From: Parachlamydiales bacterium
GTDB lineage: Bacteria; Chlamydiota; Chlamydiia; Chlamydiales; Rhabdochlamydiaceae
DNA: 64,000 bases
Direction: 5' to 3'
NCBI GenBank assembly: GCA_963705295.1
Contig: OY970065.1
Location: 192,001 to 256,000 of the forward strand
The notes under the pieces are model-generated. The model was not told the DNA's origin, ran no database searches, and saw only the letters and a list, made by a program, of their open reading frames with translations. The translations under genes and the position numbers were made by a program. The number at the start of each line of letters is the position of its first letter. The stretch's first letter is position 1. Shown piece by piece: positions 5,542 to 52,527 of this stretch.

Positions 5542-7461
5542 ATGAAGAAAACCATCCTTTTTCTCTTGAGTGTCGTCCTTTTTCCTTTAATACTCCTAGG
5601 AAAACCTCCCGAATTGACTCCTAAAGATACGCGCGTAAAAGTGGAAGAAATTCTGAAGGCGCATGCTACTTATCACACTCTGAATCAAGAACTAATAAAA
5701 AGATCTTTTGAAAATTTCCTGCATGAGATCGATCCATCCTTTTCTTATCTCCTTGAATCCGAAGTACTTAAGTGGACATCCCCCTCGGAAGAACTCCTTA
5801 CTCGAACTCTCGAGGCTTATAAAAAGGACGACTTCTCTATTTTCGAAGAAATTCACCAAGGAATTGTTAAAGCCATTGAAAGGCGGAGAGAATTAGAGAA
5901 AAATCTTGTCAATATACCTCCTCCTTCCGACGTCGATTCGATCGAATTCAAAGATATGACTTGGGCCAAAACAGTCAAAGAACTCGAAAATCGGATCATC
6001 AGAATCAAAGGACTCCAGCTGAAAACAGCCGAAAAGGTGTTAGATAAAGAGACCAAGGAGACCTTCTTACTCCGCCTCGATAAACGGCGCATCACGAAAG
6101 AAGATGAGCTCATGGCCCCCTCCCATCGGAAACAGCTCGTCCTTTCAAACGCCCTTAAAGCCATCAGTAGCGCGCTCGACTCTCAGACCGCCTATTTTAC
6201 CCCTTCTGAAGCGAATCAGTTCATGATCCAAGTCCAGCAACGGCTTTTTGGAATCGGAGCTCAGCTCCGCGATGATTTGAATGGATTTTCAGTCATCCGC
6301 ATTTTAGAAAATAGTCCCTTGAGCCAAAATAACAAAGTCCAAATTGGGGATAAGATCGTCGCTGTCAATCACGAACCTGTGATTGGGCTTGATATTACCG
6401 AAGCCGTTGAGCTCATTCGGGGACCCCAAGGCACCCCTGTCACCCTCACATTTTTGCGAAAAAAAGAGATAGAAGAGAAATTTGATCTCGAAATCGTCCG
6501 CGGTGAAATCGTCCTCAAGGATAGCCGACTTGAAAAAAGCTATGAGCCGTTCGGCAATGGAGCGATTGGAATTGTCAAACTCTACTCGTTTTACCAAGAT
6601 CCGACCTACTCTTCTTCTTCGGACCTTCTCGAAGCCATCCAACAGCTCCAAAAAGAACATGCCCTCAAAGGCGTCATCTTAGACCTCCGCAACAATGCAG
6701 GAGGACTTCTTCCTCAAGCCGTCTCTGTAGCTGGTCTGTTCATGAAAAAAGGGGTTGTGGTTTCAGTGAAAGATAATACCGGCTTTGTTCAAAAACTCCG
6801 GAATGTTGAATCTAAGACTGGCTGGGATGGTCCTCTCATCATTTTGACCAATAAAACCAGCGCGTCTGCCGCCGAAATTGTCGCGCAGACACTCCAAGAA
6901 TATGGACGCGCTCTTATTGTTGGAGATGAACAAACCTTTGGAAAAGGGACCTTTCAAACCTTTACCTTAGAGACATCTCACTATGGAAAAGTGAATCCGA
7001 AAGGTGAATTCAAAGTCACGCGAGGTCGTTACTACACCGTCTCTGGAAAAAGCCCTCAACTGGTCGGTGTTTCAGCCGATATCGTTGTCCCGAGCTTATT
7101 CTCTGACATGGAAATCGGGGAAAAATACTCCAAATATCCTCTAGAGACCGATCAAATTACCGCCAGCTTTGAGGACGATCTCTCAGACATTCCCATGCTC
7201 CACAGACAGCAGGTGGTCAAATACTATAAATCCGACCTTCAACCCATCGTCACCACCTACAAACCGTACCTTGAAACCCTCAAGAAAAACTCGTCCGAGC
7301 GACTCAAACTCAATCTCAATTTTCAAAATTTTCTCCAAGCCATTTCAAAAAAAGAATTTTCCAGCCTTCCCTCGTTCGGTCAAAACGACCTCCAGCTCCA
7401 AGAAGGCTTGAATGTGATGAAAGATCTCCTCCTCTTGCAACAACTGCAAAAAGCGGCTTAG
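5542..7461 (+). CDS. tsp: Tail-specific (C-terminal processing) S41 protease with PDZ domain
   Basis: Signal peptide; PDZ (LFGIG, LIRGPQGT); DLRNNAGG, SASAAEI, TFGKGT. Confidence 0.92.
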   Translation: MKKTILFLLSVVLFPLILLGKPPELTPKDTRVKVEEILKAHATYHTLNQELIKRSFENFLHEIDPSFSYLLESEVLKWTSPSEELLTRTLEAYKKDDFSIFEEIHQGIVKAIERRRELEKNLVNIPPPSDVDSIEFKDMTWAKTVKELENRIIRIKGLQLKTAEKVLDKETKETFLLRLDKRRITKEDELMAPSHRKQLVLSNALKAISSALDSQTAYFTPSEANQFMIQVQQRLFGIGAQLRDDLNGFSVIRILENSPLSQNNKVQIGDKIVAVNHEPVIGLDITEAVELIRGPQGTPVTLTFLRKKEIEEKFDLEIVRGEIVLKDSRLEKSYEPFGNGAIGIVKLYSFYQDPTYSSSSDLLEAIQQLQKEHALKGVILDLRNNAGGLLPQAVSVAGLFMKKGVVVSVKDNTGFVQKLRNVESKTGWDGPLIILTNKTSASAAEIVAQTLQEYGRALIVGDEQTFGKGTFQTFTLETSHYGKVNPKGEFKVTRGRYYTVSGKSPQLVGVSADIVVPSLFSDMEIGEKYSKYPLETDQITASFEDDLSDIPMLHRQQVVKYYKSDLQPIVTTYKPYLETLKKNSSERLKLNLNFQNFLQAISKKEFSSLPSFGQNDLQLQEGLNVMKDLLLLQQLQKAA

Positions 7462-8498
7462 CCCAGTTTTCGACTTTGATTTCTACAATCCTTCAGAAAT
7501 CGAACCGTCGGTGTTTCTTTCGGTTGACTCGAAAAAGTTTCAGCAGCAAACCATTTTACAGAATCTTCGTCTTTCCAAACAAAATACGGAATGGGATCCG
7601 AGTTTCTTGTTCTGTAAATTTCATCTGCCTCTTTCAAAAGTTCGTGTGATTCAACATAAGCCTTCCAAGTTCGAGTCAAGTCGGCAAAGGTCGGCTCCAG
7701 TTTTTTTAGGCAGGCTGCAAAAGAGAGAGCACACTTCCAGTCTGTGACAGTTTCACTTAAGGCGAGTCTATAGGTGCGCAATGCTTTTTTTAATTCTTCT
7801 CCCGGCCCAGCAACAGCTCTGCAAAATAAATAATGGGGAACAATTTGATATTCAAACCAACCAATTTGATATTTTGCACAAAGAAGCCGCTCTAAACGGC
7901 TAAAGGGCCAATCATGGACCGAAGCAAGATCTTCATTTTGACAAAGGGGAATCATTTGAAACTCCCTTGTCGGAATCCCAATGTCTTTAGCATCCAGTTG
8001 ATCTTCATTGGGTTTATTGAGCCGGTGGAAAGGCTGCAATAGAGCGCTATCAAAGAATACCCCGCGACTTCGAAGAAGCCGGTTTGTTCCATCAAAAAAA
8101 TCACTTTCCATGTCGGGAATGTCTTCCATCAAACCGATTTGTTCTTGAACTAAAACTTTGTGGCACCGGTTAGACAAAGCTCTTTCGAATGACGCCGCGT
8201 GAAGGATCGACTGCCGCTGTCCCCTTTCTTCTGCACTCCAACTAAAACGGGACTTTAAGAAAAAAACAACATACGCAAAAATCCCAGAGATTCTCGATAA
8301 AAACCCTCTTCTCATCTGATAAAAATACCTACCGTCCTCTGTCGCACGTGGATCAAAACCGAGATCGTAATACCGATGGATTTTCACAGGGCTCCAGTTG
8401 GGTGGAGGAGCCGGATAAGAAGGCCTGACACTCTCTTTCAATTGAGCAAAAAGGATTTTTCTCATTTCGACTTCAATGGCATGGATGCGAGGAGGCAT
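7458..8498 (-). CDS. Hypothetical protein (accessory, possible effector)
   Basis: 346-aa ORF filling the gap; no recognised motif. Confidence 0.65.
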   Translation of the reverse strand: MPPRIHAIEVEMRKILFAQLKESVRPSYPAPPPNWSPVKIHRYYDLGFDPRATEDGRYFYQMRRGFLSRISGIFAYVVFFLKSRFSWSAEERGQRQSILHAASFERALSNRCHKVLVQEQIGLMEDIPDMESDFFDGTNRLLRSRGVFFDSALLQPFHRLNKPNEDQLDAKDIGIPTREFQMIPLCQNEDLASVHDWPFSRLERLLCAKYQIGWFEYQIVPHYLFCRAVAGPGEELKKALRTYRLALSETVTDWKCALSFAACLKKLEPTFADLTRTWKAYVESHELLKEADEIYRTRNSDPIPYFVWKDEDSVKWFAAETFSSQPKETPTVRFLKDCRNQSRKLG

Positions 8499-8513
8499 AG
8501 GAACCTTAAGGTC

Positions 8514-8732
8514 CTATCTAGTGCGCAAATAAACATGTTCCCCATAATGAGGGTCACCTTCGGGTCTCTTCATCACTTCCCAAAGACGGCCAAAAATTTT
8601 ATTTGCAGTAGCCGGGTCCTCCTGTTTTACAAGCTCCATCATTTGAGCTGCTTCATCTTCTTTATTTGCATAAAGAGCATCCAGTGCCTGGTATAAATGT
8701 TCTATTGTCGTCTGTCGTACAGCCTGTGTCAT
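8514..8732 (-). CDS. Small hypothetical protein
   Basis: 72-aa ORF with GAGGAG SD; helical composition; co-oriented with 7458-8498. Confidence 0.6.
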   Translation of the reverse strand: MTQAVRQTTIEHLYQALDALYANKEDEAAQMMELVKQEDPATANKIFGRLWEVMKRPEGDPHYGEHVYLRTR

Positions 8733-8795
8733 AATCTCCTCAATTATAATGCAAATACTTTGCTGAAAATTTGAATTTTCGTTAAGTTATTTTAA

Positions 8796-9302
8796 ATGAT
8801 TACCTCAATTACAAATATTAGTTTAAAAGAATTTCCTAAATTTCTTCCAACTTCGATCAAAGCTATCGATTGGAGGGTCGCGACGTGTTTTGCCCTTGCC
8901 ATCGTCTCCATTATCCTTATTGCCACACGGTACACTCCCCCACAAACCCCAAAAATTATTCCCGATATTAAAAATATTACACCTAACGACTTGGATTTCA
9001 CGCCAGCGGAATTGGAAGAAAGGGGCGTGTTGCCAGGAAATACCGTCCAATGGACATTAAAAGATTTGATTGTCCAATTATTGACCTTCATCCGACTGGA
9101 AAATAGAAGAGAAATCACCTTCAATGGTTCTCACCAACCTCAAATCCTTCGGTTTCTAACCCTTGGACTTCCACCCAATATTTCTTTTGAAAAGGGGAGA
9201 CAAACCACCTGGGTCTACCGCATTCTCAAAGCTCTTCAAAATAAAAAAGTTGTTCATTCTTTCTTTTTAGACCAAACGAAAATACAATTATTGTTAAAAT
9301 AG
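8796..9302 (+). CDS. Paralogue A of a local family (N-terminal TM + one ~120-aa domain)
   Basis: IDWRV-TM leader; ITF, LGLP and WVYRILKALQNKKVV motifs shared with neighbours. Confidence 0.75.
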   Translation: MITSITNISLKEFPKFLPTSIKAIDWRVATCFALAIVSIILIATRYTPPQTPKIIPDIKNITPNDLDFTPAELEERGVLPGNTVQWTLKDLIVQLLTFIRLENRREITFNGSHQPQILRFLTLGLPPNISFEKGRQTTWVYRILKALQNKKVVHSFFLDQTKIQLLLK

Positions 9303-9323
9303 ATCGCATCAAAGGAGAAAAAA

Positions 9324-9764
9324 ATGTCGTCACAGATTCATTTTCTTTCAACCGGGACGGTTCATTCTGGATTGCCACGCTTAGCTATTCAAGATGCAAC
9401 TTATACCAAACTCGGATTCACTGAAGCTGAAAAAGATACAACTTGCACATTACCTAACTATATAACTCAGGGAACGGATACCTTTACGCTCAATGAAATT
9501 TGCGAACATCTTATTCTCCTCATCAAAAGCAGAGTTACAACTGGAGACAAAACAGAGATCACATTTGATGTACATAATCAGATGCACGTCTTCGATTATA
9601 TGACCTTCGGTCTTCCCCACAATTTAACCTACCAAGATGCGGGCGTTGAACAAAAAAAACAATCTTGGATCTGCCGAATTCTTCAAGCTCTAAAAGACAA
9701 AGGTTGTATCCGACAATTTGTCATCATGCCTTTTGGCGAGCGTAGGATTGTAATCACCCTTTAA
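9324..9764 (+). CDS. Paralogue B (one domain, no TM)
   Basis: AAGGAG SD; LGFTEAE, GDKTEITFD, FGLP, SWICRILQALKDKG. Confidence 0.8.
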   Translation: MSSQIHFLSTGTVHSGLPRLAIQDATYTKLGFTEAEKDTTCTLPNYITQGTDTFTLNEICEHLILLIKSRVTTGDKTEITFDVHNQMHVFDYMTFGLPHNLTYQDAGVEQKKQSWICRILQALKDKGCIRQFVIMPFGERRIVITL

Positions 9765-9783
9765 TAACAAAAAGGAAAAAAAT

Positions 9784-10719
9784 ATGTCACAGATTCTTTT
9801 ACTTTCTAATATTAACTTTAGAGCAATTCAAAGCTCTATCTCATCAACCTTGAAAAGAATCGATTGGAAAGTTGGAGCTGTTGCAACTCTTGCACTTGCG
9901 ACAGTCGCTTATCTTGCTCGTTCTTATCTTTTTTCAAAACCCTCTCTTGCAAGACCAACATTTAAATCTCTTGATAATATCGATGCCGAGAAACTTGGAT
10001 TTTCCAAGGAACAACGGACAAAGTTAAAATCGGTTGGGGGATTCATGACACTTTTCGATGGTAGCCCTGGTGAAGAGGTCACAACATCGTATACTTTTGA
10101 AATGGTTTGCAACCGGATCATCTATGAAATTCATTTCCCTGGAACAGAGAATGTCAGTTTTGAGGCGCCCCTTTCAAAAAAAAGTTGGCGTACTTTCAAC
10201 TTTATTGATTTCGGTATTCACCGCGATGTACCTTACGAACAAGCCTCGGATGTTGAAAGACGGGAAAGCTGGTTTTATATGACTCTTAAAGCACTCCGAG
10301 ATCAGGGTTATATTACATTTGTTATCAATCCTACTTCCATTGAAATCACACGGTGCCTGCCCCAACCGTATCAGCCACCAAAAACCCCTCTTCTATATCT
10401 GACCCCTCAAAAACTAGGGTTTGCCAATCATCAATTGAACCAGTCAGAAATTCTGCCGAATACAGATGGTACCCGATATACCTTTCGAGAACTATGCGAA
10501 GAAATTATTAATACTATCCGACTTGAATCTTTAGAAAACATCGTTATCCAGGAAAACTCGATTATTTTCGATTGTCGAAATTTTGGCTTATCCCCTGGTA
10601 GGCAAGTGCAAGTGCCTTGGGTTTATCAAATTCTGACGGCTCTAAAAAACAAAGGTTACATCACGACTTTTGACATGAATCGTACCAACATTGAAATCAC
10701 AAAAATACACCCTTCGTGA
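9784..10719 (+). CDS. Paralogue C (N-terminal TM + two domain copies)
   Basis: IDWKVGA-TM leader; KLGF...YTF...FG...W.Y..L.AL...GYIT pattern occurs twice. Confidence 0.8.
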   Translation: MSQILLLSNINFRAIQSSISSTLKRIDWKVGAVATLALATVAYLARSYLFSKPSLARPTFKSLDNIDAEKLGFSKEQRTKLKSVGGFMTLFDGSPGEEVTTSYTFEMVCNRIIYEIHFPGTENVSFEAPLSKKSWRTFNFIDFGIHRDVPYEQASDVERRESWFYMTLKALRDQGYITFVINPTSIEITRCLPQPYQPPKTPLLYLTPQKLGFANHQLNQSEILPNTDGTRYTFRELCEEIINTIRLESLENIVIQENSIIFDCRNFGLSPGRQVQVPWVYQILTALKNKGYITTFDMNRTNIEITKIHPS

Positions 10720-10740
10720 ATCAAATTTTTTGATTTTATT

Positions 10741-10787
10741 AACATGATCAATGTGATACGCCTGATATGCAAAATGTCGATCATGTT
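10741..10787. repeat. Short inverted repeat (9-bp arms)
   Basis: aacatgatc (10741-10749) / gatcatgtt (10779-10787). Confidence 0.55.
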
Positions 10788-10806
10788 GAGCACAACAACG
10801 GATATC

Positions 10807-10886
10807 AACGCAAAGACGCCAAGCCGCGAAGACGCAATTTTTATAAATCATTGACGATTTTCTTCGCGGCTTGGCGTCTTTGCGTT
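10807..10886. repeat. Perfect 26-bp inverted repeat (REP-like hairpin, 28-nt loop)
   Basis: aacgcaaagacgccaagccgcgaaga (10807-10832) is the exact reverse complement of 10861-10886; arms are built of 8-nt MCGCVAAG units. Confidence 0.9.
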
Positions 10887-11092
10887 ATTAACCCGAGGGT
10901 CAATAAATCTTCGTAACGGTTGAGTTTGGAAAAGAAGTCGCCCAATTCACCAATTTCCGTTTTAAGACACCCAGAATTTTTTTTATCAGGCGTATCAACC
11001 ATATCCTATGAATCATGTTTTTTATACGGTTTGCCTCAAGAGGCTCTGACGAAAACCCCAACTTACGACCAAGTTTTGAGTTTTCTGGGGTA
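10885..11092. repeat. Degenerate long palindromic element
   Basis: Starts ttattaacccga, the same as the 14407 element; tcgtaa (10911-16) pairs with ttacga (11063-68); inner cgtat...atacg stem. Confidence 0.5.
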
Positions 11093-11178
11093 GAATTATT
11101 TGAATTCAATGACTTAAACTTTCAATACAATAAAATGAGTTTATTATATAATGATTCTCCTCAATAAAGGAGAAAATA

Positions 11179-11772
11179 ATGTCACAGATTCATTTGCTTT
11201 CAAATATTAATTTTAGCCAACTCCCCCAGCTTTTTTCAGCAACAGTGAAAAGAATTGATTGGAAAGTTGGCGCATGTGTTGGCGTTGCCCTTGCTGCCCT
11301 TGCTTACCTAGCGATCCGAAATCGTCGGCCGACTCAGTCTACGGGAATATTTACCAATAGAATGGAACCTCGTTTAGAAACTCTTTTAGACATTAAGAAT
11401 GCAACTTATGCTAACCTTGGGTTCACTGAAGCGGAACAAGAAATCACTTGCACATTACCGAACTATTTAACTCATGATACGAATGATTTTACACTCAAGA
11501 ATATTTGTGAAGATTTAATACTGCTCATTAAGAATAGAATACAGACAGGTGATAAAACAGAGATAACTTTTGATACCCATAACCAAGGGGATCATCTCTT
11601 TGACCATATGAATTTCGGTCTCCCCAATAATTTAACTTATCAAGATGCAGGGGTTGTACAGAAAAAACAAAGTTGGAACCACCGAATCCTTCAAGCTCTG
11701 AAGGACAAAGGTTACATCCGACAGTTTATTATCATGCCCGACGGCGATCGTAAGATCGTTATTACCCTTTAA
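11179..11772 (+). CDS. Paralogue D (N-terminal TM + one domain)
   Basis: AAGGAG SD; leader resembles paralogue C; domain about 75% identical to paralogue B by hand alignment. Confidence 0.8.
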   Translation: MSQIHLLSNINFSQLPQLFSATVKRIDWKVGACVGVALAALAYLAIRNRRPTQSTGIFTNRMEPRLETLLDIKNATYANLGFTEAEQEITCTLPNYLTHDTNDFTLKNICEDLILLIKNRIQTGDKTEITFDTHNQGDHLFDHMNFGLPNNLTYQDAGVVQKKQSWNHRILQALKDKGYIRQFIIMPDGDRKIVITL

Positions 11773-11783
11773 GAATTCTTGAA

Positions 11784-11811
11784 ATCTATCTTCCTCTAGG
11801 GGAAGATAGAT
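11784..11811 (+). terminator. Hairpin between paralogue D and gltX (terminator or translational control)
   Basis: 11-bp perfect stem atctatcttcc/ggaagatagat; only a weak U tract; ends 6 nt before the gltX ATG. Confidence 0.4.
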
Positions 11812-11817
11812 ACTCTT

Positions 11818-13299
11818 ATGTCAGTACGCGTACGCATTGCACCCTCACCAACCGGCGATCCTCATGTGGGAACAGCTTATATGGCTGTTTTTAATTTGAT
11901 TTTTGCGAGGCATTTTGGTGGTAAATTTATTTTGAGGATCGAAGATACCGATCGGACGAGGTCTCGGCCGGAGTATGAAAAGAGTATTTTTGACGCGCTC
12001 CATTGGGCGGGGATAGGATGGGATGAGGGACCCGATATTGGGGGGCCTTTTGGACCTTACAGGCAATCGGAGAGGACGGAGATCTATCAAAAATATTGTC
12101 AGCAGCTTTTAGATAACGGGAAAGCTTACAAGTGTTTTGCGACGCCGGAAGAACTGGCCGAGATGCGGGAAATGAGTATTAAGATGGGGAAGAGGGTGGG
12201 CTATGATAGGCGGTATCGGAATTTGAGCCCTCAAGAGGTGGCGGAGAGAGAAAAAGCAGGGCAGCCGTATGTCATCCGTCTTAAAGTTCCACTGACAGGT
12301 GAATGTATTTTTGAAGATGGAATCAAAGGAAGGATCACGAGTCCGTGGGCCGATATCGATGACCAGATTCTTATGAAATCGGATCGATTTCCAACGTATC
12401 ATTTGGCCAATGTGGTCGATGACCATCTCATGGAGATTTCACATGTGATTCGGGGGGATGAATGGATCAGTTCGACTCCAAAACATATTTTACTCTACGA
12501 GAGTTTTGGATGGACCCCTCCGGTGTTCATGCACATGCCCCTTTTACTCGGCAAAGATGGAAAAAAACTATCGAAGAGACGGAATCCGACATCCATTTTC
12601 TACTACCGCGATAGTGGTTATCTCCCAGAAGCTTTTTTGAACTTTATGACGCTGATGGGCTACAGCATGCCGGGTGACCGGGAAATGTATTCGATGGAAG
12701 AGATCATCAAGGAATTTGATCCAAAGCGGATTGGCGTTTCGGGTGCTTTTTTCGATATCCATAAACTCGATTGGCTCAATCAACAATATTTGATTAAGAC
12801 CATTCCAGAAAACGAGCTCTGGGAAAAAATTAGGAACTGGGGATTCAACGATGCTTTCATGTCAAAGCTGATGCCGCTGGTCCACACACGGATCAAGACT
12901 TTTGCGGAATTCATGGAGCTGTGTTATTTCTTCTTCGTCAATCACCTTCCGTATACTCAAACCCTGTTCCCATCAGAAAAAGCAGCCTTCATCCTTCAAA
13001 CGATATTGTGGAGTCTCGACGAACAAGAAAATTGGGGACGATCTGGTATTGAAACGGCCTCAAAAGAAGTGGCTGAAGCTTTCGGAGTGCACCATAAAAA
13101 AGTCATTATCCCTCTTCTGTATGCAGCGATCACAGGCAAACATCAAGGGCCGCCTCTCTATGATTCTTTCGAACTTTTAGGGAAAGACCGGTGCCGTGCA
13201 CGGCTTTTAGGATCGATAGAATTTTTAGGCGGAATCTCGAATAAAAAAATGGATCTCCTCACCAAAGGCTGGAGTGCGAAGAACTGTAAAGAATTATAA
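11818..13299 (+). CDS. gltX: Glutamate--tRNA ligase
   Basis: [13 protein letters not shown] (HIGH), LRIEDTD, VIRGDEW, KLSKR (KMSKS). Confidence 0.96.
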
Positions 13300-19124: not shown

Positions 19125-20483
19125 ATGGATATCATCAAAATCAAAGGTGGAAAACCTCTCGAAGGGAGCGTCCGAGCTGTCGGCGCAAAAAACTCTGTCA
19201 CGAAACTGCTCGTTGCATCCCTTCTCTCGGATAAACGGTGCGTGTTTTTCAATGTTCCGAACATCCTCGATGTCGAAATCACCGTCGATCTGTGCAGGGA
19301 AATCGGCAGCACGATCCATTGGGATAAAAAAGAGGGTGTGATCGAAATCGTCACCAAAGAACTGAAGACCACCTACATTCCGCAACGTTTTTCTGGATCG
19401 AATCGGATTCCGATTTTGATGATCGGAGCTTTGCTGGGAAGAACCGATGAAGACATCATTGTTCCGACAGCAGGTGGGTGCAATATTGGAAGACGGCCGA
19501 TCGATTTCCATATTTCTTCGATGGAAAAACTCGGTGCGACCATCGAGTTTCGTCAGATGAAAAAAGAGGGGGCTTATTTTGCCAGAGCCCATCAAGGTCT
19601 CCGTGGCACGGTCATTGAACTTCCTTACCCTTCGGTAGGTGCAACAGAAAATTCGATCTTAGCATCGTGCCGAGCTAAAGGTGGAACCGTCATTAAAAAT
19701 GCCGCCATTGAGCCCGAAATCATCGACCTCGTTTTATTCCTGCAACAACTCGGAGTCGCCATCAGTGTCGACACCGATCGGACCATTCGGATTCAACCAG
19801 CCCAAGAATTTTACGAAGTAGAGCACACCGTCATCACCGACCGGATCGAAGCTGCATCTCTCGGCATGGCGGCCATCAGCACCAAAGGGCGTGTCTTTGT
19901 CGAAGGTGCCCAACATCCTCACATGATCGCCTTCCTCAACAAACTCCGTGAACTCGGAGCCGGTTTTCACATCCGAAACAATGGAATCGAATTTTTCTAC
20001 CGTGGTCCTCTCAAAGGAGGCATCCTCCTTGAAACCGATGTCCATCCCGGATTTCTGACCGATTGGCAACAACCGTTCGTTGCCCTCCTCACCCAAGCAG
20101 AAGGACATTCGATCGTCCATGAGACTGTCTATGAAAATCGATTTGGTTACACCGAAGTGCTCAAAGAAATGGGTGCCGACATCCAACTCTTCACCCAATG
20201 TCTCGGAAACCACGCATGCCGCTTCCGCTCACAAAACTACTCCCATAGTCTTGTCGTCAAAGGACCCACACCCCTCTCATCCCGCGATATCACCATCCCC
20301 GATCTCCGTGCCGGCTTTGCCTACGTGATCGCCGCCCTCATGGCCCCTGAAACCAGCGCCATCTCCGGCGCTCACTTCCTCGACCGCGGCTACGAAAACC
20401 TCGTCGAAAAACTCGGCACTCTTGGCGCCGACATCACAAGAGAATCGGCCCCCTCGAAAAAGGCACCATCATATTCTAGATAA
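19125..20483 (+). CDS. murA: UDP-N-acetylglucosamine 1-carboxyvinyltransferase
   Basis: GAKNS, GGCNIGRRPIDFH, SVGATEN, DRIEA, HPGFLTDWQ, VYENRF, DLRAG, LDRGYE. Confidence 0.96.
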   Translation: MDIIKIKGGKPLEGSVRAVGAKNSVTKLLVASLLSDKRCVFFNVPNILDVEITVDLCREIGSTIHWDKKEGVIEIVTKELKTTYIPQRFSGSNRIPILMIGALLGRTDEDIIVPTAGGCNIGRRPIDFHISSMEKLGATIEFRQMKKEGAYFARAHQGLRGTVIELPYPSVGATENSILASCRAKGGTVIKNAAIEPEIIDLVLFLQQLGVAISVDTDRTIRIQPAQEFYEVEHTVITDRIEAASLGMAAISTKGRVFVEGAQHPHMIAFLNKLRELGAGFHIRNNGIEFFYRGPLKGGILLETDVHPGFLTDWQQPFVALLTQAEGHSIVHETVYENRFGYTEVLKEMGADIQLFTQCLGNHACRFRSQNYSHSLVVKGPTPLSSRDITIPDLRAGFAYVIAALMAPETSAISGAHFLDRGYENLVEKLGTLGADITRESAPSKKAPSYSR

Positions 20484-21326
20484 ATTTAGTGCTCTTCTCA
20501 ATAAATGAGCACTCCCACCTTTTGCTAATTGCTGAGGAGTTTCGCCAACAACATTGACAACTCGAGGATTTGCACCATAACCGAGCAATAAAGCGACCTC
20601 ACGATCTAGACCATACATGGCTGCACAAGAGAGGGGTGTATTGCCCTTGCCATTTCTCGCTTCAATATCGGCCCCTTTACTTACTAATAAAGAGACTTTA
20701 TCAGCTGACTCAAAAACAGCCGTGTGTAAAAGGGTTTTATAAGAAGTTACACCATCGATTCTGTAGGGAATGGGCATATCGACATTGACACCCCTTTGCA
20801 AGAATTGTCTTAGAGAAATTAAATCAGTCTTATCCACATCTTCATACGAGTAAAATCGACCATTAAAATCATGAAATACAATTGGTAGATTTTCCTTTTT
20901 CAATTCATGAGGACCAATGGGGACAAATCTCTCTGCTCGGATAAGCCAAACATTCCTGCAAGGCCAAACTTCTTTTAACGCATCACATTCGGCAACATCC
21001 AAATGCTTCACAGTCTCAGGAAGAACCAACTTAACGATGTTTTTACAACGATCCAATATAAGACTCTGAACTCTTAAAACATGGACATAGGTGCCTGAAA
21101 AAGAATCCGACTCAGTGATCTTAAGAACACGCAGCCCTTGCATCTGTGCAAGGAATCGCATAAAAAGTCGTTCTACTTCCAAGATCCTTTCAGGTGAAAA
21201 TTGATCTTCTATCCCAGCTACCCGAAGTCTCGGAAGGGATAAGACTTCGATCCATTGAAAATCCAATTTTCTCAATTGTTCATAGACTTGTGCGCATGTT
21301 GAATCAGCAAATGTGACTGATGCCAT
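20469..21326 (-). CDS. LRR-like plus C-terminal ankyrin-repeat protein (putative effector)
   Basis: LRVLKITE, VQSLILDRC and VKHLDVAEC LRR-like strands; TLLHTAV, GADIEARN..GNTPL, GANP..GETP ankyrin motifs; GGAGG SD. Confidence 0.75.
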   Translation of the reverse strand: MASVTFADSTCAQVYEQLRKLDFQWIEVLSLPRLRVAGIEDQFSPERILEVERLFMRFLAQMQGLRVLKITESDSFSGTYVHVLRVQSLILDRCKNIVKLVLPETVKHLDVAECDALKEVWPCRNVWLIRAERFVPIGPHELKKENLPIVFHDFNGRFYSYEDVDKTDLISLRQFLQRGVNVDMPIPYRIDGVTSYKTLLHTAVFESADKVSLLVSKGADIEARNGKGNTPLSCAAMYGLDREVALLLGYGANPRVVNVVGETPQQLAKGGSAHLLRRALNLSRI

Positions 21327-21456: not shown

Positions 21457-22419
21457 ATGATTTTATGGAGACAGATTCAACGTCAAAATTTTAATTGCTG
21501 GAAAAAACTTGCTGAGTTTTTAGAACTGGGTGATGATTCTAAGATTCTGAAAAAGAGTCGCTTTCCTTTGAATTTGCCGGTAAGGCTTGCTCAGAAGATA
21601 GAAAAAAAGAATTTTGATGATCCTATTCTGAGGCAATTTCTTCCCTTGGAGGAGGAACGGAAGTCTCTGCCGGGGTATTTAAAAGATCCGGTGGGCGACT
21701 GCAAGGTCCAAAAAACATCCAAACTTCTGCAGAAATACCATGGAAGAGCTTTGCTGATTTGTACGAGTAGCTGTGCGATGCATTGTCGGTTCTGTTTTCG
21801 GCAAAATTACGATTACGAGACCGATCAGGGATTCGAAACAGAAATCAAAATGATTGCTGAGGATCGTTCTCTGACGGAGATTATTTTAAGTGGGGGTGAT
21901 CCGTTGTCACTCTCCGATCTTGTTTTGGAAGAGCTGTTGAGTCAATTGGAGAAAATTCCTCACGTGAAAAGAATTCGAATCCATACCCGTTTTCCGATGG
22001 GGATTCCGGAGAGAATCGATCCCTCTTTTTTATCACTTCTTCAGAATAGACGAGTGCAAGTTGTTTTTGTTGTTCATATTAATCATCCTGCTGAGCTCGA
22101 TGAAGATATTTTGAGAGGGTTGAAAAAGATTCAGTGTTTAGGGATTCCTGTTCTCAATCAAGGTGTTCTACTCAGAGGAATCAATGACACTGTTTCTGTT
22201 TTAAAAGAGCTGTGTGAAACGTTGGTGAATCATGGAATTTTACCCTACTATTTACACCAGCTGGATCGTGTGGAAGGGGCTGCCCATTTTGAAGTGGAAG
22301 AAGAGCGCGGTCGAGAGCTGATTGCTGGTTTGACAGAGGTTTTATCAGGATATGCGGTTCCTAAGTATGTTCGGGAAGAAGCGGGCTGTTCATCTAAAAC
22401 CGCTTTACATTTTGTCTAA
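21457..22419 (+). CDS. epmB: KamA/EpmB-family radical SAM lysine 2,3-aminomutase
   Basis: CAMHCRFCFR, ILSGGDPL, RIHTR, HINHP, NQGVLLRGIND, PYYLHQLD. Confidence 0.85.
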   Translation: MILWRQIQRQNFNCWKKLAEFLELGDDSKILKKSRFPLNLPVRLAQKIEKKNFDDPILRQFLPLEEERKSLPGYLKDPVGDCKVQKTSKLLQKYHGRALLICTSSCAMHCRFCFRQNYDYETDQGFETEIKMIAEDRSLTEIILSGGDPLSLSDLVLEELLSQLEKIPHVKRIRIHTRFPMGIPERIDPSFLSLLQNRRVQVVFVVHINHPAELDEDILRGLKKIQCLGIPVLNQGVLLRGINDTVSVLKELCETLVNHGILPYYLHQLDRVEGAAHFEVEEERGRELIAGLTEVLSGYAVPKYVREEAGCSSKTALHFV

Positions 22420-37327: not shown

Positions 37328-37905
37328 GTTTGAGAAAAATAGCTATAACAGGCGGTCTTGCAGCTGGCAAATCGACCGTGTGCCGTATTCTCCAAGAAGA
37401 GTATAGTGCTTTTGTCATTGATGCCGATAAAATTGTACATCAATTGTTATCTCCTCATACGGAAGTCGGACAAAAGGTTATCCATCTTCTAGGTCATGAA
37501 ATTGTAGCCGGAAATCAAATCGATAGGAAAAAAATTTCAAATATTGTGTTTTCAGATCCCAAAAAATTAGATGCTTTAGAATCCATTTTACACCCTGCTG
37601 TTAGAGAGGAAATCGAACGCGAGTTCAACCAGGTGAAGTCAAAACCATCTTACCGGTTTTTTGTCGCTGAAATTCCTCTTCTTTACGAGGCCAAAATGGA
37701 ACATGAGTTTGATACCGTGATAGCCGTGATTGCAGATGAGAGGTACGCCTCTCCTGACGATTTTGAAAAGCGGCTGTCTCGGCAATTACCATCCCATACA
37801 AAGGCCCAGAAAGCCGACTTTGTGATTCAGAATAATGGAGATTTAACCAGTTTAAGATCAGCGATCCAATCTATCGTGGATCAGTTGCAAAAGGAGAATC
37901 AATGA
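37321..37905 (+). CDS. coaE: Dephospho-CoA kinase
   Basis: [28 protein letters not shown]. Confidence 0.92.
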
Positions 37906-39233
37906 ACCCAGAAGACACGACTTCCATGACATCGGAACAACCTACCCGAGGACCCGAACAAGAGCCAGTACCTGGCCAAATTACAAAAATTGCCGATCTC
38001 CAGCGGATGAACGTTGATCAACTCAATGTTATCGCAAGAGATATGGGTCTGAAACATCTCGGATCTCTCCCAAAATCTCAACTTGTTTTTGAAATCGTTA
38101 AAGCCAAGGCCGAACATCCCACGGAAATTTTAGTAGGAGAAGGTGTTTTAGAAGTCCTTCCTGATGGTTTTGGATTTCTCCGCTCGCCTAACTATAACTA
38201 TCTCCCCTCTGCCGAGGATATCTATGTTTCCCCTGCTCAAATCCGTCGGTTTGATCTCAAGAAAGGAGACACCGTTTATGGGACGATCCGATCACCCAAA
38301 GAGAAAGAAAAATATTTTGCGCTACTGAAAGTCGATAAAATTAATGGACGGCCTCCCGAAGAAGCCAGAGAAAGGATCTTATTTGAAAACCTGACTCCCC
38401 TTTATCCCGACAAACGTCTTGTAATGGAGACATCGAAGGAAAAACTCACGACCCGTATCATGGATCTCATTGCTCCTATCGGAAAAGGGCAGCGTGGTCT
38501 GATCGTGGCTCCTCCTCGCTCGGGGAAAACCGTCATCTTGCAGAGCATTGCCAATGCGATCACGACAAATAATCCTGACGTCGTTCTCATCGTGCTTCTG
38601 ATCGATGAACGTCCTGAAGAAGTCACCGACATGAGCCGTAGCGTTAAAGGCGAGGTGATCTCTTCAACCTTTGACGAACCTCCTGAAAGACACGTTCAAA
38701 TCGCTGAGATGGCCATTGAAAAAGCACGCCGCCTTGTCGAGTACCACCATGACGTTGTTATTCTGCTCGATTCTTTAACCCGTCTCGCCCGTGCTTACAA
38801 TACGGTGCAACCTCACTCAGGAAAAATCTTAACAGGTGGTGTCGATGCCAATGCCCTTCACAAACCGAAGCGCTTTTTTGGAGCAGCTCGCAATGTGGAA
38901 GAAGGTGGATCCCTCACGATCATTGCAACGGCGCTCATTGAAACGGGCTCTCGCATGGACGAGGTCATCTTTGAAGAGTTTAAAGGAACGGGCAACATGG
39001 AACTCGTCCTTGACAGACGTCTCGCAGATCGGCGTATTTATCCTCCTATCGATCCGATCAAGAGTGGAACCCGCAAAGAAGAATTGCTTTTCCATCCTGA
39101 GGAGCTCGAAAAAATTCACCTCATGCGTGGAGGGCTGGGCGATCTTTCGCCTCTCGATGCGATTCCTTTATTAAGCGGAAGAATCAAAAAAACAAACAAT
39201 AATATCGAATTTTTACTCTCATTAAAGGATTAG
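37902..39233 (+). CDS. rho: Transcription termination factor Rho
   Basis: [44 protein letters not shown]. Confidence 0.97.
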
Positions 39234-41966: not shown

Positions 41967-41983
41967 TATCTCTTTTTATCCAT

Positions 41984-42073
41984 GGAAAGATGGCTGAGCG
42001 GCCGAAGGCACGTCCCTGCTAAGGACGCGTACTCCCCAAAGGAGTACCGTGGGTTCAAATCCCACTCTTTCCG
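41984..42073 (+). tRNA. tRNA-Ser(GCT)
   Basis: Acceptor GGAAAGA/TCTTTCC + G discriminator; anticodon arm cgtcc-ctGCTaa-ggacg; long variable arm gtactcc/ggagtac; GGTTCAAATCC T-arm; CCA not encoded. Confidence 0.95.
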
Positions 42074-42083
42074 ATCGTCTGCA

Positions 42084-45000
42084 CTACCTCTTTTGTTGTA
42101 AGTTTAGAGAGAGTTTGGCGTCAATGTCGGGCAGGAGGGGACTTTTTTGAACGAGGGCCTCCTTCCGTGCCGCTTCAAAATATTTTTCCGCTTCTTGAAA
42201 TTTATGGAGGATGGCTCCGAGCTCACCTACTTTAATAAAAATTTCGATATTTTTGGGATCAAACTCGGCGGCTTTTTTCAAATATTGGTAAGCTTTTTCA
42301 GGGTCTTCTTTTAGAACAAAAGATCCAAGTCCAAAATAAGCATCCGAACACGTCGGTTCTATTTCTATCGCTTTCGTTAAATATTCCTCTGCTTTTTTCA
42401 AGTTCCCACGCTTGACCTCAACCCCTCCAAGTCCTACGTAATTACGGCCGTTTGGAGGTAGCAATTGCAGAGCTTTTAAATAATGCCCTTCGGCTTCATC
42501 AATTTTTCCTCGGTGGAAAGCGACATTTCCAAGTCCAGTGAAGGCATAGCTGTTATAACGATTCAACTCGAGAGACCTTTTATAATGGGTTTCAGCTCCG
42601 TCAGGATCTTGTTCAAAATCTACATCTCCAAATCCCGAGTGGGCGTACGGGTTGTTGGGATCTTTTTTCATAGCAAATATGAAAAATTTATTCGCTGCGT
42701 CTAATTCTTTTCGCTTGAGAGCTATGACTCCTAAACTTGCCCACGCAGGGGAGTTATCAAGATCTAGTGCTATAGATTCCCTGTAGAATTTTTCGGCTTG
42801 TTCTAGATTACCTTGTAGTAAGGAAGCTAATCCTAAACATAGATAGACGTATGGATTCTTTGGACCCTGTGTTAATTCTTCTTGAAGATACCTATCCGCT
42901 TCAGCAAATTTAAATTGACAGGCTAAAACTTCTCCTAATCCAAGCCGGATGAGCCTCATCTGTTCACGATTATTTTTCGGACACTTTTGCAGGGCTATTT
43001 CATGGTATCGCTGAGCTTCTTGAAGTTTTCCAAGGAAATATGCACAGGTGCCAAGACCGAGCTCGGCGCTACCATCTTCTGGGTTTAACTTGAATGCAGC
43101 TTCATAATAGTGCCGAGCTTCTTCTACTTTGTACTGAGCGATAGCAACCTTACCGAGACAAATTAAGAAACTGCTATAGTGTGGATGGGTTGCATGGACT
43201 GTTTTAAGTAGTTTTTCTGCTTCGGTATACTTTTTCTTCATGAGTAATTCGCGTGCTGCTACTAAAGTCTTAAGGGGATTGGAATCCATCTGTGTAGCGG
43301 CCTGCAAAGTCACTTTAAAGGAATGTGATGCACCTTTTGAAGCAAGGAAGTTTTCGATTTCCTTTTTTCTAAGAAAGACTGCCAGATCGAACGGTGTGTA
43401 TCCTTCCTTATCTACTTTATGAATGTCGGTTCTTAGGTCGCAGCAAATCCGCTGGACGATGGGAAGCCGTCCTTGACTCACTGAGTAGTGAAGAATGGTC
43501 CTTTCGGAGGGGCCATAAACTTCATTCGGATCAGTTCCAGCAGACAGTAAAACATCTACGGCAGGGAGATGTCCGGCACCAACGGCAAATGAAAGAGGGG
43601 GAAGTTGGTCGATGTCTTTGGGGTTTTTGATAACGGTTTTTTCTTGAAGGAGACGGTTTAGCATATCGACTCTTCCGAGCACTGCAGCGGTATGAAGAGG
43701 TGTCGACCTCGTAACTCCAGAGGGTGCATTGCAATTTGCTCCTGCACGAAGGAGGGCATCGCAGCTTTCGATGTCTCGACTAGCCGCAATACCCAGCGGT
43801 GTAAGAAGTTCTAGCGTCCGTTGTTCCAGATCGATTCCTGGAATCTTGCATACCATTTGAACAAGTTTAACGTGGTTTTTATCAATGCCGATATGCAATG
43901 CGGTGAGTTTGTACGGTCCGTTGGTATCATCGACTTTAGCGCCTGCTCTGAGTAATTCCTCAGCAGCCTCCACATGACCCCCGGATGCTGCAGCAAAGAG
44001 GGGTGTTAAATCGGTTTGAGTCGGGTCGTATATGATTCCAACAGCTTTAAACTCAGCCTTCACCTGTTCGATATTTTTGGGGCTTCCTAAAGGGTGAAAA
44101 AGACTTAAAGGTGTTTTTACCTTTTGATTGACATCGACCCCAGCAACCGTGCAGAGCCATGCTATAACCTTTGAATGACCAAGGCCGGCTGCCAGATGGA
44201 GAAGAGGAACTTTATCTTTTCCACATCTTGTATGAACATCTGCTCCGGCAGCAGCGAGTATTTGTGCACTATCCACACAACCTCTTGAAACAGCAGCACC
44301 TAAAGGTGTGTAAAGGTGTTTATTCCGTTTATCGATCTCAATTCCAGACCTATTCACCAACAATTCAGTGATCGGGTTGCTTCCTTTGATGGCTGCTAAG
44401 TGGAGGACTGTATCTTGGTCAACACCATTTTCTAAATTGACATCAGCGCCAGCATCTAAAAGGAGTTTAGCTGTTTCGATCTGCCCTGCCAAAAGGGCTT
44501 CAAAAAGAGGTGTATAACCTTTTCTATTCTTTCCATCGAGATCACGCACCGTTATACAGAGGTGCCGAAGAACAGAAGCTTCTCCGAGTTTAGCGGCTTC
44601 ATGAAGAGCCGTTGAACCGTCAGGGCCATTTTCCAGCAGAATATTTGGATACGTAAACAACAAGAGTGCTGAAACGACATCCCGTCTTCGATTCCGAATG
44701 GCGAGAAAAAGAGGGGTAAAACCGTCCAGGTTTTTCTGATTGACGTTAGCAATTCTGCAGAGCATATAGACAATTTCAGCATGTCCGGCTTCTGCTGCGG
44801 CATGGAGGGCGGTTTCTCCATTTGTTCCATTCATCTCATCTATAGAGGCTCCAGCCTCAATTAAAGCATTAACGAGCGGGATAAGGCCCATTTTAGAAGC
44901 AAGATAGAGGGGCGCATGATCGGATCCATTTTTGAGGTTCACCAGTTTTTCGAGTTTAGCTTTCTCCCATTTCAATTTATCCAAAAGAAAAAGAGCCATT

Positions 45001-51862: not shown

Positions 51863-52527
51863 ACTTTTCTCTCCTCTCTTTAAAAAACTATCCGATTTAT
51901 GACCAGCTCCTCCTAGAGGAAGAGCTTCTCAGAAATGATCACAGAAATTTGTGTCTGATCAATGTAGGATCACCACCAGCAATCGTGATGGGAATCTCGG
52001 GTAAAGCAGACCAACTCATCCATCTAGACAACGTTACTATTCCTATTATCCGTCGCTTTAGTGGAGGTGGGACCGTCGTGGTCGATGAAAATACCGTTTT
52101 TGTCACTTTCATCTGCAATAAAGCTGACCATCCGTTCCCTGCCTATCCTGAACCAATCCTCCGCTTTGCAGAAACGATTCTTGCACCCACCATCCCAGGG
52201 CTCATTTTGCGCGAAAATGACTTCGTCATAGGTGAAAAAAAATGTGGCGGAAATGCTCTTTATATTAAGAAAGATCGGTGGCTTCTCCACACATCGTTCC
52301 TTTGGGATTATCACCCCGCACATATGGATCTTCTCAAGCACCCACCCAAAACTCCCACCTATCGACAAGGACGAACCCACGAACACTTCCTCTGCCGCCT
52401 TTCTGATCGGATTGAACATCAAGACAAGTGGATACAGAATTTAAAGAAAATTGGTTCCGAATTAGAAGAGATTTCAAGAATTACTTTGAATCAGTATGGC
52501 ACGTCGATCGTCTTCCATCCATCTTAA
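51859..52527 (+). CDS. lplA: Lipoate-protein ligase family protein
   Basis: [29 protein letters not shown]. Confidence 0.85.

What the first reader, a model, noticed from the sequence alone, without database searches (positions are those of the whole stretch)
7200..12260. Accessory patches have C-rich left flanks and G-rich right flanks (candidate hypervariable slots)
Seen (hand counts, + strand): the tsp end left of the 7.5-11.8 kb patch has 40 C/15 G (7201-7320) and the gltX start right of it has 44 G/22 C (11941-12060). The murA end left of the LRR-ankyrin gene has 53 C/25 G (20281-20400) and epmB right of it has 43 G/17 C (22261-22380). The lplA end left of the Inc-like trio has 39 C/19 G (52321-52440). 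The dnaB start right of the ankyrin-TPR gene is moderately G-rich (45481-45600: 32 G/19 C). The polarity matches that around the intein. No integrase, transposase or att duplication is visible. Inference: these are fixed slots whose cargo is exchanged repeatedly by recombination through the flanking core genes, with mutagenic strand-biased synthesis. This could be an undescribed effector-cassette exchange process.
Basis: partly seen in the sequence, partly recalled or inferred. Interest (0 to 1): 0.75.

Follow-up and report, generated by a model that had tools for sequence, protein, structure and literature searches.

The report
Genome-wide G-to-C gradient along operons
The C-rich and G-rich edges seen around accessory genes are real, but they are the local face of a genome-wide pattern in which coding DNA runs from G-rich at the start of each transcription unit to C-rich at its end, a pattern that is strong in this chlamydia-like genome and weak or absent in close relatives.

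Summary
All six hand counts are exact. The polarity is real, but it is not special to accessory patches. In this 2.13-Mb genome the third-codon-position GC skew falls from about +0.1 at gene and operon starts to about -0.3 at their ends: 77% of 1284 genes have a negative slope, t = -26.8.

The skew resets at every gene junction except tight operon junctions. That includes 367 junctions with gaps of 21-300 nt, too small to hold cargo.

Two things survive:
- The four slots do hold different genes in congeneric species.
- The polarity is about twice as strong next to AT-rich genes.

It also resets inside one ORF, at the dnaB intein.

The gradient is strong in this genome and in one genome of another family, which was predicted from its dnaB alone. 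It is weak in two congeners and not significant in four other genomes.

My preferred cause is a strand-asymmetric mutation process tied to transcription-unit boundaries (p about 0.45). Rho-related selection is the main rival. I found no evidence for recombinational cassette exchange with mutagenic synthesis. I found no paper describing this pattern.

The parts
5542..7461 (+). tsp (tail-specific protease), a single-gene unit. Its last 240 nt have G-C = -43; the C-rich run is 7138-7409.
   Evidence: Pfam Peptidase_S41 2.9e-40, TSP_NTD, PDZ; GC3 skew -0.32; 9th percentile of 829 unit ends; run coordinates
7458..8498 (-). Accessory ORF (346 aa), convergent with tsp. No family match.
   Evidence: 0 Pfam and 0 NCBIfam families; GC3 0.38; no tblastn hit at E<1e-5 in the syntenic regions of 5 congeners
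8796..11772 (+). Tandem array of four paralogous accessory genes (8796-9302, 9324-9764, 9784-10719, 11179-11772). Each has a hydrophobic N-terminal segment.
   Evidence: Alignment A1, 22-34% identity to the first sequence, 14 invariant columns; DNA repeats D1-D5; family found in 3 of 31 genomes searched, at other loci in G004 and G006
10800..10893 (.). Inverted repeat with 33-nt arms (91% complementary) in the gap inside the array
   Evidence: the repeat finder I1
11784..11811 (+). Palindrome with 14-nt arms (12-13 pairs) between the last cargo gene and the gltX start. Possible terminator or unit boundary.
   Evidence: I14
11818..13299 (+). gltX. G-rich start (first 240 nt G-C = +26; run 11863-12313) and whole-gene GC3 skew +0.20.
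   Evidence: Pfam tRNA-synt_1c 2.2e-108. Orthologues: G005 +0.44; G004, G006, G016, G007 -0.29 to -0.08
19125..20483 (+). murA, last gene of its unit. Its last 240 nt have G-C = -48.
   Evidence: Pfam EPSP_synthase 2.2e-62; 7th percentile of unit ends. Orthologue ends: -29 where cargo follows (G016); -10, -8, -17, -4 where epmB follows at 53-91 bp
20469..21326 (-). Accessory ankyrin-repeat gene. Not found in the syntenic regions of the 5 congeners.
   Evidence: Pfam Ank 2.1e-09; GC3 0.31
21457..22419 (+). G-rich throughout (GC3 skew +0.42); its 3' end is an outlier at +27.
   Evidence: Pfam Radical_SAM 3.2e-09; 99th percentile of unit ends
37902..39233 (+). rho (transcription termination factor), present in this window
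   Evidence: PF07497 match at G000:230139-230360, 1.2e-34
41983..42074 (+). tRNA-Ser(gct), directly beside the ankyrin-TPR accessory gene
   Evidence: ARAGORN
42084..45203 (-). Accessory ankyrin-TPR gene (1039 aa)
   Evidence: Pfam Ank_2 2.4e-75, TPR_2 2.5e-31; only a 22%-identity partial hit in one congener
45347..48085 (+). dnaB carrying an intein. The N-extein (45347-46549) runs from G-C +19 (first 240 nt) to -29 (last 240 nt). The intein is 46550-47848. The C-extein (47849-48082) has pos3 G33/C7.
   Evidence: Pfam DnaB_C, Intein_splicing, LAGLIDADG_3. Intein-less orthologues have C-extein pos3 G/C of 16/13, 15/26, 7/28, 12/20
50045..52527 (+). gidA-lplA unit. The lplA end is C-rich (last 240 nt G-C = -29).
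   Evidence: Pfam GIDA, LplA-B_cat
52481..54616 (-). Only weak coiled-coil-type matches.
   Evidence: 53789-54616 has 27-29% identity homologues in the same slot of G004 and G006

Best explanation
The flank skews are the local expression of a genome-wide gradient anchored to transcription units (TUs). On the coding strand, synonymous sites run from slightly G+T-rich at the start of each TU to strongly C+A-rich at its end. On the + strand this gives a sawtooth: negative skew to the left and positive skew to the right of every TU boundary, whatever the gene orientation. Accessory genes sit between TUs, so they are flanked by TU ends and TU starts. Inserting cargo into an operon creates a new end and a new start.

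Shown here: the gradient itself; its reset at junctions without cargo; its roughly doubled amplitude beside AT-rich DNA; its reset at an in-frame intein; and its variation between lineages.

Inferred (p about 0.45): the cause is a strand-asymmetric mutation process, namely deamination of transiently single-stranded DNA. The exposed strand would switch along the TU. Sense transcription would expose the coding strand near the start. Untranslated antisense or read-through transcripts entering from the downstream boundary would expose the other strand near the end. AT-rich inserts would act as extra sources of such transcription.

The first layer (a TU-polar gradient, not a cargo-specific process) I hold at about 0.85. 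The confidence figure given for this explanation is for both layers together.
For: Gradient:
- GC3 skew falls monotonically by gene decile, from +0.09 to -0.24.
- At 4-fold sites C rises 0.235 to 0.350, G falls 0.223 to 0.161, and T falls 0.312 to 0.276.
- 77% of 1284 genes have a negative slope, t = -26.8.

TU scale:
- No reset at 367 co-directional junctions with gap <= 20 nt (+0.75, n.s.).
- Resets of +14.7, +22.8 and +14.7 per 240 nt at gaps of 21-100 (n=131), 101-300 (n=67) and >300 nt (n=78).
- In multi-gene TUs, position in the TU (z = -10.8) outweighs position in the gene (z = -7.5).
- The ribosomal-protein operon runs from +0.29 down to about -0.3 in its later genes (most negative -0.39).

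All four junction orientations show the upward jump. Abutting convergent ends do so in 91% of 120 cases.

Nucleotide-level pressure, not tRNA-specific selection:
- Every codon family shifts the same way.
- Val and Gly fall; His and Gln rise.

Same axis as the replication asymmetry:
- G and T change together. The AT3-to-GC3 skew change ratio is about 0.25 along genes, against about 0.17 between leading and lagging strands.
- T falls toward TU ends, whereas Rho targets in B. subtilis need high T (PMC12407708, abstract).

Intein:
- In G000 the C-extein has pos3 G33/C7/T27/A11, following an N-extein end with G8/C32/T12/A28.
- Four intein-less orthologues keep G about equal to or below C (G/C 16/13, 15/26, 7/28, 12/20).
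- The same jump occurs in 2 of 11 other intein-bearing dnaB genes.
- One of those two genomes, tested afterwards, has the genome-wide gradient (t = -5.8 on 200 kb, -8.7 on 600 kb). A genome without the jump does not.

Relatives:
- murA ends are -48 and -29 where cargo follows, and -10, -8, -17, -4 where epmB follows directly.

Pipeline controls:
- Four genomes give slopes not significantly different from zero with the same script.
Against: - The gradient is a tendency, not a rule. Only 17 of 26 C-rich and 7 of 12 G-rich extreme runs in the window fit the simple TU model. The epmB 3' end is G-rich (99th percentile).
- TUs were inferred only from gene spacing, using my own ORF caller. No transcript data could be obtained.
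- Non-coding flanks show skew near zero. A purely transcription-linked mutational process would be expected to mark transcribed 3' UTRs, unless these are very short or hairpin-constrained.
- The G-to-C exchange is larger than the T-to-A exchange. Deamination alone does not obviously predict this.
- Divergent junctions show only a weak start effect (+7; about 0 in G259).
- The promoter-like match at the intein's 3' end (47811-47838) is within chance expectation: 9 found against 6.4 +/- 2.5.
- No gene-content difference among those tested explains why only some lineages have the gradient.
Confidence: 0.5

Rival explanations
1. The same TU-polar gradient, but maintained by selection on RNA composition through the termination factor Rho. 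C-rich, G-poor 3' coding ends would serve as Rho loading regions in a genome with tiny intergenic spacers and few hairpin terminators. G-rich 5' parts would avoid premature termination.
For: - rho is present.
- Canonical hairpin+T terminators follow only 2-12% of TU ends in all six genomes examined.
- The shift is at nucleotide level in all codon families.
- Abutting convergent ends are the most consistently polar class, 91% upward.
Against: - Congeners with the same rho and the same scarcity of terminators lack the gradient.
- T falls toward TU ends, while Rho targets need high T (PMC12407708).
- The unconstrained 3' non-coding flank, the easiest place to put a rut site, has skew about 0.
- The gradient spans whole TUs, not the last 100-300 nt.
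- The dnaB N-extein end is as C-rich as a TU end, although termination there would destroy an essential mRNA.
Confidence: 0.2
2. Translation-linked codon selection. Preferred codons (C-ending) would become more frequent along the message because errors late in synthesis cost more. This would be position-dependent codon bias of the kind described in E. coli.
For: - A gene-level component exists besides the TU-level one (z = -7.5).
- The skew is confined to coding DNA.
- Position-dependent codon usage is documented (PMC4069614, abstract and passages read).
Against: - No reset at start codons inside operons.
- All codon families shift alike regardless of decoding, and amino-acid composition shifts too.
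- Ribosomal-protein genes are not enriched in C-ending codons (C/(C+T) mostly 0.30-0.51, typically about 0.4, against a genome median of 0.42).
- The reset after the intein occurs within one continuous ORF.
- The gradient is absent in close relatives.
Confidence: 0.08
3. The slots are fixed sites where cargo is repeatedly exchanged by homologous recombination through the flanking core genes. Outward, strand-biased, error-prone DNA synthesis would leave origin-like polarity in the flanks.
For: - Cargo differs among congeners at all four slots.
- Polarity is about twice as strong beside low-GC3 genes (same direction in G259, p = 0.027).
- At murA/epmB the polarity is present with cargo and weak without it.
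- The jump at the dnaB intein, a homing element, is not an obvious TU boundary.
- The polarity has the same sign as at a replication origin.
Against: - The same polarity occurs at 367 junctions with gaps of 21-300 nt (jump +14.0) and at 120 abutting convergent ends. Neither can hold cargo.
- It extends over whole TUs and along a 12-kb ribosomal operon.
- The C-extein differs from intein-less orthologues at so many synonymous sites (pos3 G33/C7 against about 15/26) that one or a few repair events could not produce it.
- Amino-acid divergence of slot-proximal flanks is not raised in G000 (near/rest ratios 0.87, 1.02, 0.83, 0.97 against 0.79, 1.05, 0.88, 0.96 among the other species).
- Ordinary mobility signs exist: a transposase in a relative's slot, a tRNA next to one patch, and tandem duplication within the cargo.
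Confidence: 0.05

Closest known systems
Replication-associated strand asymmetry (GC / keto skew switching sign at oriC)
   Same: Same compositional axis: G with T against C with A. Same sign of switch: negative to positive on the + strand. This genome shows the classical chromosome-wide version, with the cumulative skew minimum near 310 kb and the maximum near 1340 kb. Leading-strand genes have GC3 skew -0.025 and lagging-strand genes -0.166.
   Different: Here the switch recurs at about a thousand inferred transcription-unit boundaries. Its amplitude (about 0.35 in GC3 skew) is larger than the replication effect (0.14). It is seen in coding DNA only.
Transcription-associated mutational strand asymmetry (excess G+T on the non-template strand; bacterial and mammalian literature, recalled, apart from PMC2031905 and PMC2927911, seen only in search listings)
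   Same: G+T excess on the coding strand near transcription starts. Uniform across codon families.
   Different: Known bacterial descriptions are of a gene-wide offset. They do not describe a gradient that reverses sign toward the 3' end, resets only at unit boundaries and at an intein, and differs between congeneric species.
Position-dependent codon usage bias (PMC4069614; abstract and passages read)
   Same: Codon frequencies change with distance from the start codon.
   Different: That work models a per-gene decay from the 5' end in E. coli, tied to mRNA structure and expression. Here the main variable is position in the transcription unit, there is a strong 3'-end effect, and amino-acid usage shifts as well.
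Rho-dependent terminator composition (high C-to-G skew; PMC12407708, abstract and method passages read)
   Same: TU ends reach C-to-G skews of 0.34-0.45 in 120-nt windows.
   Different: T falls rather than rises. The signal spans kilobases. It is missing from the non-coding flank and from relatives that have rho.
Genomic islands and variable inter-operon slots in environmental chlamydiae
   Same: Lineage-specific, AT-rich genes for ankyrin, TPR and membrane proteins lie between conserved operons. One is next to a tRNA, and a transposase sits in a relative's slot.
   Different: No integrase or flanking direct repeats at the 7.5-11.8 kb patch. The cargo there is a locally duplicated paralogue family.

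Membership tests
Integrative genomic island | Integrase or transposase within or beside the patch | tested here: not met
   No Pfam or NCBIfam recombinase in 7458-11772, 20469-21326, 42084-45203 or 52481-54616. A DDE transposase does lie in the G016 murA-epmB slot.
Integrative genomic island | Flanking direct (att-like) repeats | tested here: not met
   Only weak 19-nt matches (74-84%) near 7075, 8358 and 12349, with no pair bracketing 7461/11818.
Integrative genomic island | Insertion next to a tRNA gene | tested here: inconclusive
   tRNA-Ser 41983-42074 abuts the ankyrin-TPR gene. It is the only tRNA found in the window, so there is none at the other three slots.
Integrative genomic island | Presence/absence polymorphism among relatives | tested here: met
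   Slot sizes and contents differ among 5 congeners.
Replication-type strand asymmetry | G and T enriched together on one strand, with a sign switch at a defined point | tested here: met
   GC3 and TA3 skews fall together along genes. There is an upward jump at unit boundaries in all four orientations.
Replication-type strand asymmetry | Caused by DNA synthesis starting at the switch point | not testable with these tools
   No replication or repair-synthesis data. About 1000 switch points make it unlikely (inference).
Rho-dependent terminator (rut) region | C-rich, G-poor RNA upstream of the transcript end | tested here: met
   Mean G-C of the last 240 nt of 829 unit ends is -11.5. tsp, murA and lplA are -43, -48 and -29.
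Rho-dependent terminator (rut) region | High T (U) content together with the C excess (B. subtilis criterion, PMC12407708) | tested here: not met
   T at position 3 falls from 0.324 to 0.288 toward gene ends. The tsp window has T 22 of 120.
Rho-dependent terminator (rut) region | Transcripts end there in a Rho-dependent way | not testable with these tools
   No RNA runs were listed.
Position-dependent codon usage bias (per-gene 5' decay) | Pattern restarts at every start codon | tested here: not met
   No reset at 367 co-directional junctions with gap <= 20 nt.

The most novel reading that the evidence does not exclude
Some environmental chlamydiae carry a boundary-anchored, strand-asymmetric mutational process, and close relatives lack it. 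It is probably deamination of DNA exposed by untranslated, antisense or read-through transcription, possibly through R-loops. It writes a G+T to C+A sawtooth over every transcription unit. It is amplified next to AT-rich inserts and resets even at an intein inside an ORF. If so, base composition alone would map transcription-unit boundaries and flag and roughly date insertions in uncultured genomes. The on/off distribution among congeners would offer a natural experiment for finding the responsible factor.
Probability: 0.3. Interest if true: 0.75.

Novelty: new variant of a known kind. Interest (0 to 1): 0.55.

Why it matters
For the finding as written, the proposed effector-cassette exchange process is not needed. 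These accessory patches are ordinary variable inter-operon slots.

What is worth keeping is the underlying pattern. It is a synonymous-site gradient of about 0.35 in GC skew, larger than the replication skew. It is tied to inferred transcription units and varies between congeneric species. It was recovered in a second chlamydial family by a prediction made from a single gene.

If mutational, it is a rare case where a transcription-linked mutation bias can be seen switching on and off between close relatives.

It also matters practically:
- It will distort codon-usage, horizontal-transfer and selection tests that assume uniform composition within genes.
- It could be used to infer operon boundaries and insertion history in uncultured intracellular bacteria.

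Tried and rejected
- **Chance or cherry-picking alone.** Rejected. The picks were post hoc, but the polarity holds over 143 patches and all junction classes.
- **Artefact of my ORF caller.** Rejected. Four genomes run through the same script give slopes that are not significant.
- **Amino-acid composition as the cause.** Rejected. The effect is at 4-fold sites, and position 2 is flat.
- **Replication strand alone.** Rejected. The gradient is present in both leading and lagging genes.
- **Distance from the start only, or from the end only.** These fit far worse than relative position or a two-ended decay, and the last two fit equally well, so the shape is not resolved.
- **Intrinsic terminators.** Terminator-like sites are rare (2-12% of unit ends) in all six genomes. 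They do not separate genomes with the gradient from those without it.
- **Gene content.** Rho and UDG are present in all 5 genomes tested. The RNase HI family was not found in any of 9. The RNase HII family is present twice in all 9. Mfd is present in all 9, split in G259 and interrupted in G035. None of this tracks the gradient.
- **Co-conversion of the dnaB C-extein from an intein donor.** Not supported. Position-3 identity to 11 other intein-bearing alleles is only 0.31-0.49. It is not excluded, because the true donor may be unsampled.
- **Promoter at the intein's 3' end.** One 9-of-12 match at 47811-47838, within chance expectation.
- **Public reads for SNP density and expression.** None was listed; no RNA holder listed.
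- **Literature.** Five answered full-text searches turned up no description of a transcription-unit-scale GC-skew gradient in bacteria. This covers open-access papers and bioRxiv only. Supplements were not examined.

Full report
**Setting.** The window is bases 192001-256000 of a single-contig 2,131,910-bp genome with 43.8% G+C. Cumulative GC skew has its minimum near 310 kb and its maximum near 1340 kb, so the + strand of the window is the C-rich lagging strand. 'epmB' is supported only as a radical-SAM protein. The accessory ORFs have either no family or only ankyrin/TPR repeats.

**Observation.** All six hand counts are exact. Five lie in the 0.7-2.9% tails of all 120-nt windows of the genome; the dnaB one lies only at 9.7%. 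They were picked post hoc. The window holds 26 C-rich and 12 G-rich runs of similar strength. The skew is concentrated at codon position 3: the murA window has 31 C and 2 G there. It characterises whole genes. The epmB window lies at the far end of that gene, not next to the accessory gene.

**What it is.**
- I called 1643 ORFs with a codon-usage score.
- On the coding strand, GC3 skew falls steadily from +0.09 in the first decile of genes to -0.24 in the last. At 4-fold sites C rises from 0.235 to 0.350, while G and T fall.
- 77% of 1284 genes of at least 200 aa have a negative slope (t = -26.8). The pattern holds for leading and lagging genes alike.
- The gradient does not restart at start codons inside operons. 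At 367 co-directional junctions with gaps of 20 nt or less the change is +0.75 per 240 nt (n.s.). At gaps of 21-100, 101-300 and over 300 nt it is +14.7, +22.8 and +14.7.
- Units inferred from spacing show start values near +0.1 and end values near -0.28 in every length class.
- In multi-gene units, position in the unit (z = -10.8) outweighs position in the gene (z = -7.5). A two-ended decay with a length scale of 0.5-1 kb fits as well as relative position.
- The 12-kb ribosomal-protein operon runs from +0.29 down to about -0.3 in its later genes, with -0.39 the most negative.
- Because a gradient through zero on the coding strand is symmetric under reverse complement, the + strand shows negative skew left and positive skew right of every unit boundary in all four gene orientations. 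Abutting convergent ends are the most consistent class (n = 120, 91% upward).

**How the slots compare.**
- The slot flanks are strong but not outlying members of the genome-wide distributions. They lie at the 7th-18th percentile of 829 unit ends and the 83rd-92nd percentile of 828 unit starts.
- There is a real extra effect. Low-GC3 patches flanked by GC3 >= 0.40 genes (n = 143) show a jump of +31.6, against +12.3 at 145 junctions with no room for cargo (p = 7e-8).
- There is a dose-response with the neighbour's GC3. Unit ends go from about -13 to between -24 and -31. Unit starts go from +2 to +5 up to +17 to +21. The regression t values are 4.0 and -3.0, and the effect also holds within the convergent and divergent classes.
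- Inside the window, the simple model explains only 17 of 26 C-rich and 7 of 12 G-rich extreme runs.

**Relatives.**
- Eighteen congeneric species were sampled, and synteny with five of them is conserved.
- Cargo varies. The tsp-gltX slot holds four paralogues plus one ORF here, a Fic protein and a GH130 enzyme in G004, a 963-aa methyltransferase-domain protein in G006, and nothing in G016 and G007.
- The murA-epmB slot holds an ankyrin gene here, a transposase with two ORFs in G016, and nothing in four others.
- The murA end is -48 and -29 where cargo follows, and -10, -8, -17, -4 where epmB follows at 53-91 bp. The epmB start is +23 and +7 against -29, -17, -13, -4.
- Slot-proximal amino-acid divergence is not raised in this genome.

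**The intein.**
- dnaB's N-extein shows the usual gradient, from +19 to -29 per 240 nt. The intein is AT-rich and nearly unskewed.
- The 78-codon C-extein has pos3 G33/C7/T27/A11. The intein-less orthologues in four congeners have G/C of 16/13, 15/26, 7/28 and 12/20. So the skew resets inside one ORF at an insertion.
- Intein homologues occur in 44 of 301 genomes of the order. Of 11 other full-length intein-bearing dnaB loci, two show the same jump. Both are from one genus of another family.
- I predicted that this lineage would carry the genome-wide gradient. It does: slope -0.106 with t = -5.8 on 200 kb, and -0.083 with t = -8.7 on 600 kb. A genome without the jump gives +0.02.
- In G259 the junction classes and the neighbour effect replicate in direction: ends -22.1 against -12.5, p = 0.027.

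**Lineage variation.** The per-gene slope is -0.10 to -0.19 in four 200-kb samples of this genome. It is -0.05 in G016 and G005. In G004, G006 and G007 it is -0.008, -0.007 and +0.019, none significant. These near-zero results also serve as negative controls for the pipeline.

**Mechanism.**
- All codon families shift alike (NNC up, NNG and NNT down). Val and Gly decline, and His and Gln rise. So the pressure acts on nucleotides, not through particular tRNAs.
- Ribosomal-protein genes are not enriched in C-ending codons.
- G changes together with T, and C with A. This is the axis of the replication asymmetry in the same genome, with a similar AT-to-GC ratio. It points to exposure of single-stranded DNA.
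- T falling toward unit ends, the kilobase span, the unskewed non-coding flank, and relatives with rho but no gradient all argue against selected Rho loading sites. Even so, the C-to-G skews reached are in the range that matters for Rho in B. subtilis (PMC12407708, abstract and method passages).
- The unskewed non-coding flanks are also awkward for a purely mutational account.
- My preferred model is that the exposed strand switches along the unit. Sense transcription would expose one strand early. Untranslated antisense or read-through transcription from the downstream boundary or from AT-rich inserts would expose the other strand late. This is inference and has not been shown.
- No tested gene family tracks the gradient.

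**Known or new.**
- Position-dependent codon usage is known (PMC4069614, abstract and passages). Strand asymmetries from replication and transcription are known (PMC2031905 seen in listing only; otherwise recalled).
- Five answered full-text searches gave no description of a transcription-unit-scale skew gradient that resets at unit boundaries and differs between congeners. Subscription journals and supplements were not covered.

**Verdict.** The cassette-exchange interpretation is not supported. The underlying genome-wide gradient is a new variant of known compositional asymmetries and deserves follow-up.

Noticed in passing
window 45347-48085 (dnaB); intein 46550-47848: GC3 skew resets inside one ORF at the intein. 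The N-extein end has pos3 G8/C32 and the C-extein has G33/C7. Four intein-less orthologues keep G about equal to or below C (16/13, 15/26, 7/28, 12/20). Two of 11 other intein-bearing dnaB genes (L078, L079) show the same jump.
   Followed up: partly
whole genome G000; G259 (L085-L094, L105-L124); G004-G007, G016, G035: The intragenic/operon GC3-skew gradient is strong in G000 and G259 (a different family), weak in G005 and G016, and not significant in G004, G006, G007 and G035. It therefore varies between lineages.
   Followed up: partly
window 41983-42074: tRNA-Ser(gct) directly abuts the 1039-aa ankyrin-TPR accessory gene.
   Followed up: no
window 8796-11772: The 'cargo' is a tandem array of four paralogous genes with conserved start regions and C-terminal modules (one gene carries the module twice). 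The family was found in only 3 of 31 genomes searched, and at other loci in G004 and G006.
   Followed up: partly
window 10800-10893: Inverted repeat with 33-nt arms (91% complementary, 28-nt loop) in a 460-nt gap inside the array. It may belong to the mobile hairpin repeats noted elsewhere in this genome by earlier reports.
   Followed up: no
window 21457-22419: The radical-SAM gene is G-rich over its whole length (GC3 skew +0.42). Its 3' end is at the 99th percentile of unit ends and overlaps the argS end by 15 nt. The simple gradient does not explain this.
   Followed up: partly
L019 12315-13487 (G016, murA-epmB slot): A DDE transposase (PF01609, 7.2e-14) occupies the slot that holds the ankyrin gene in this genome.
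   Followed up: no
G259:C1:2324737-2327402; G035:C1:22974-25590: mfd is split into two ORFs in G259 and interrupted by stop codons in G035. It is intact in the other seven genomes searched.
   Followed up: no
G000:C1:144432-156491 (outside the window): The ribosomal-protein operon shows the gradient over 12 kb: GC3 skew is +0.29 in the first gene and about -0.3 in the later genes (most negative -0.39).
   Followed up: yes
nine genomes (G000, G004-G007, G016, G035, G259, G275): The RNase HI family (PF00075) was not found in any of the nine. Each has two RNase HII-family genes.
   Followed up: no
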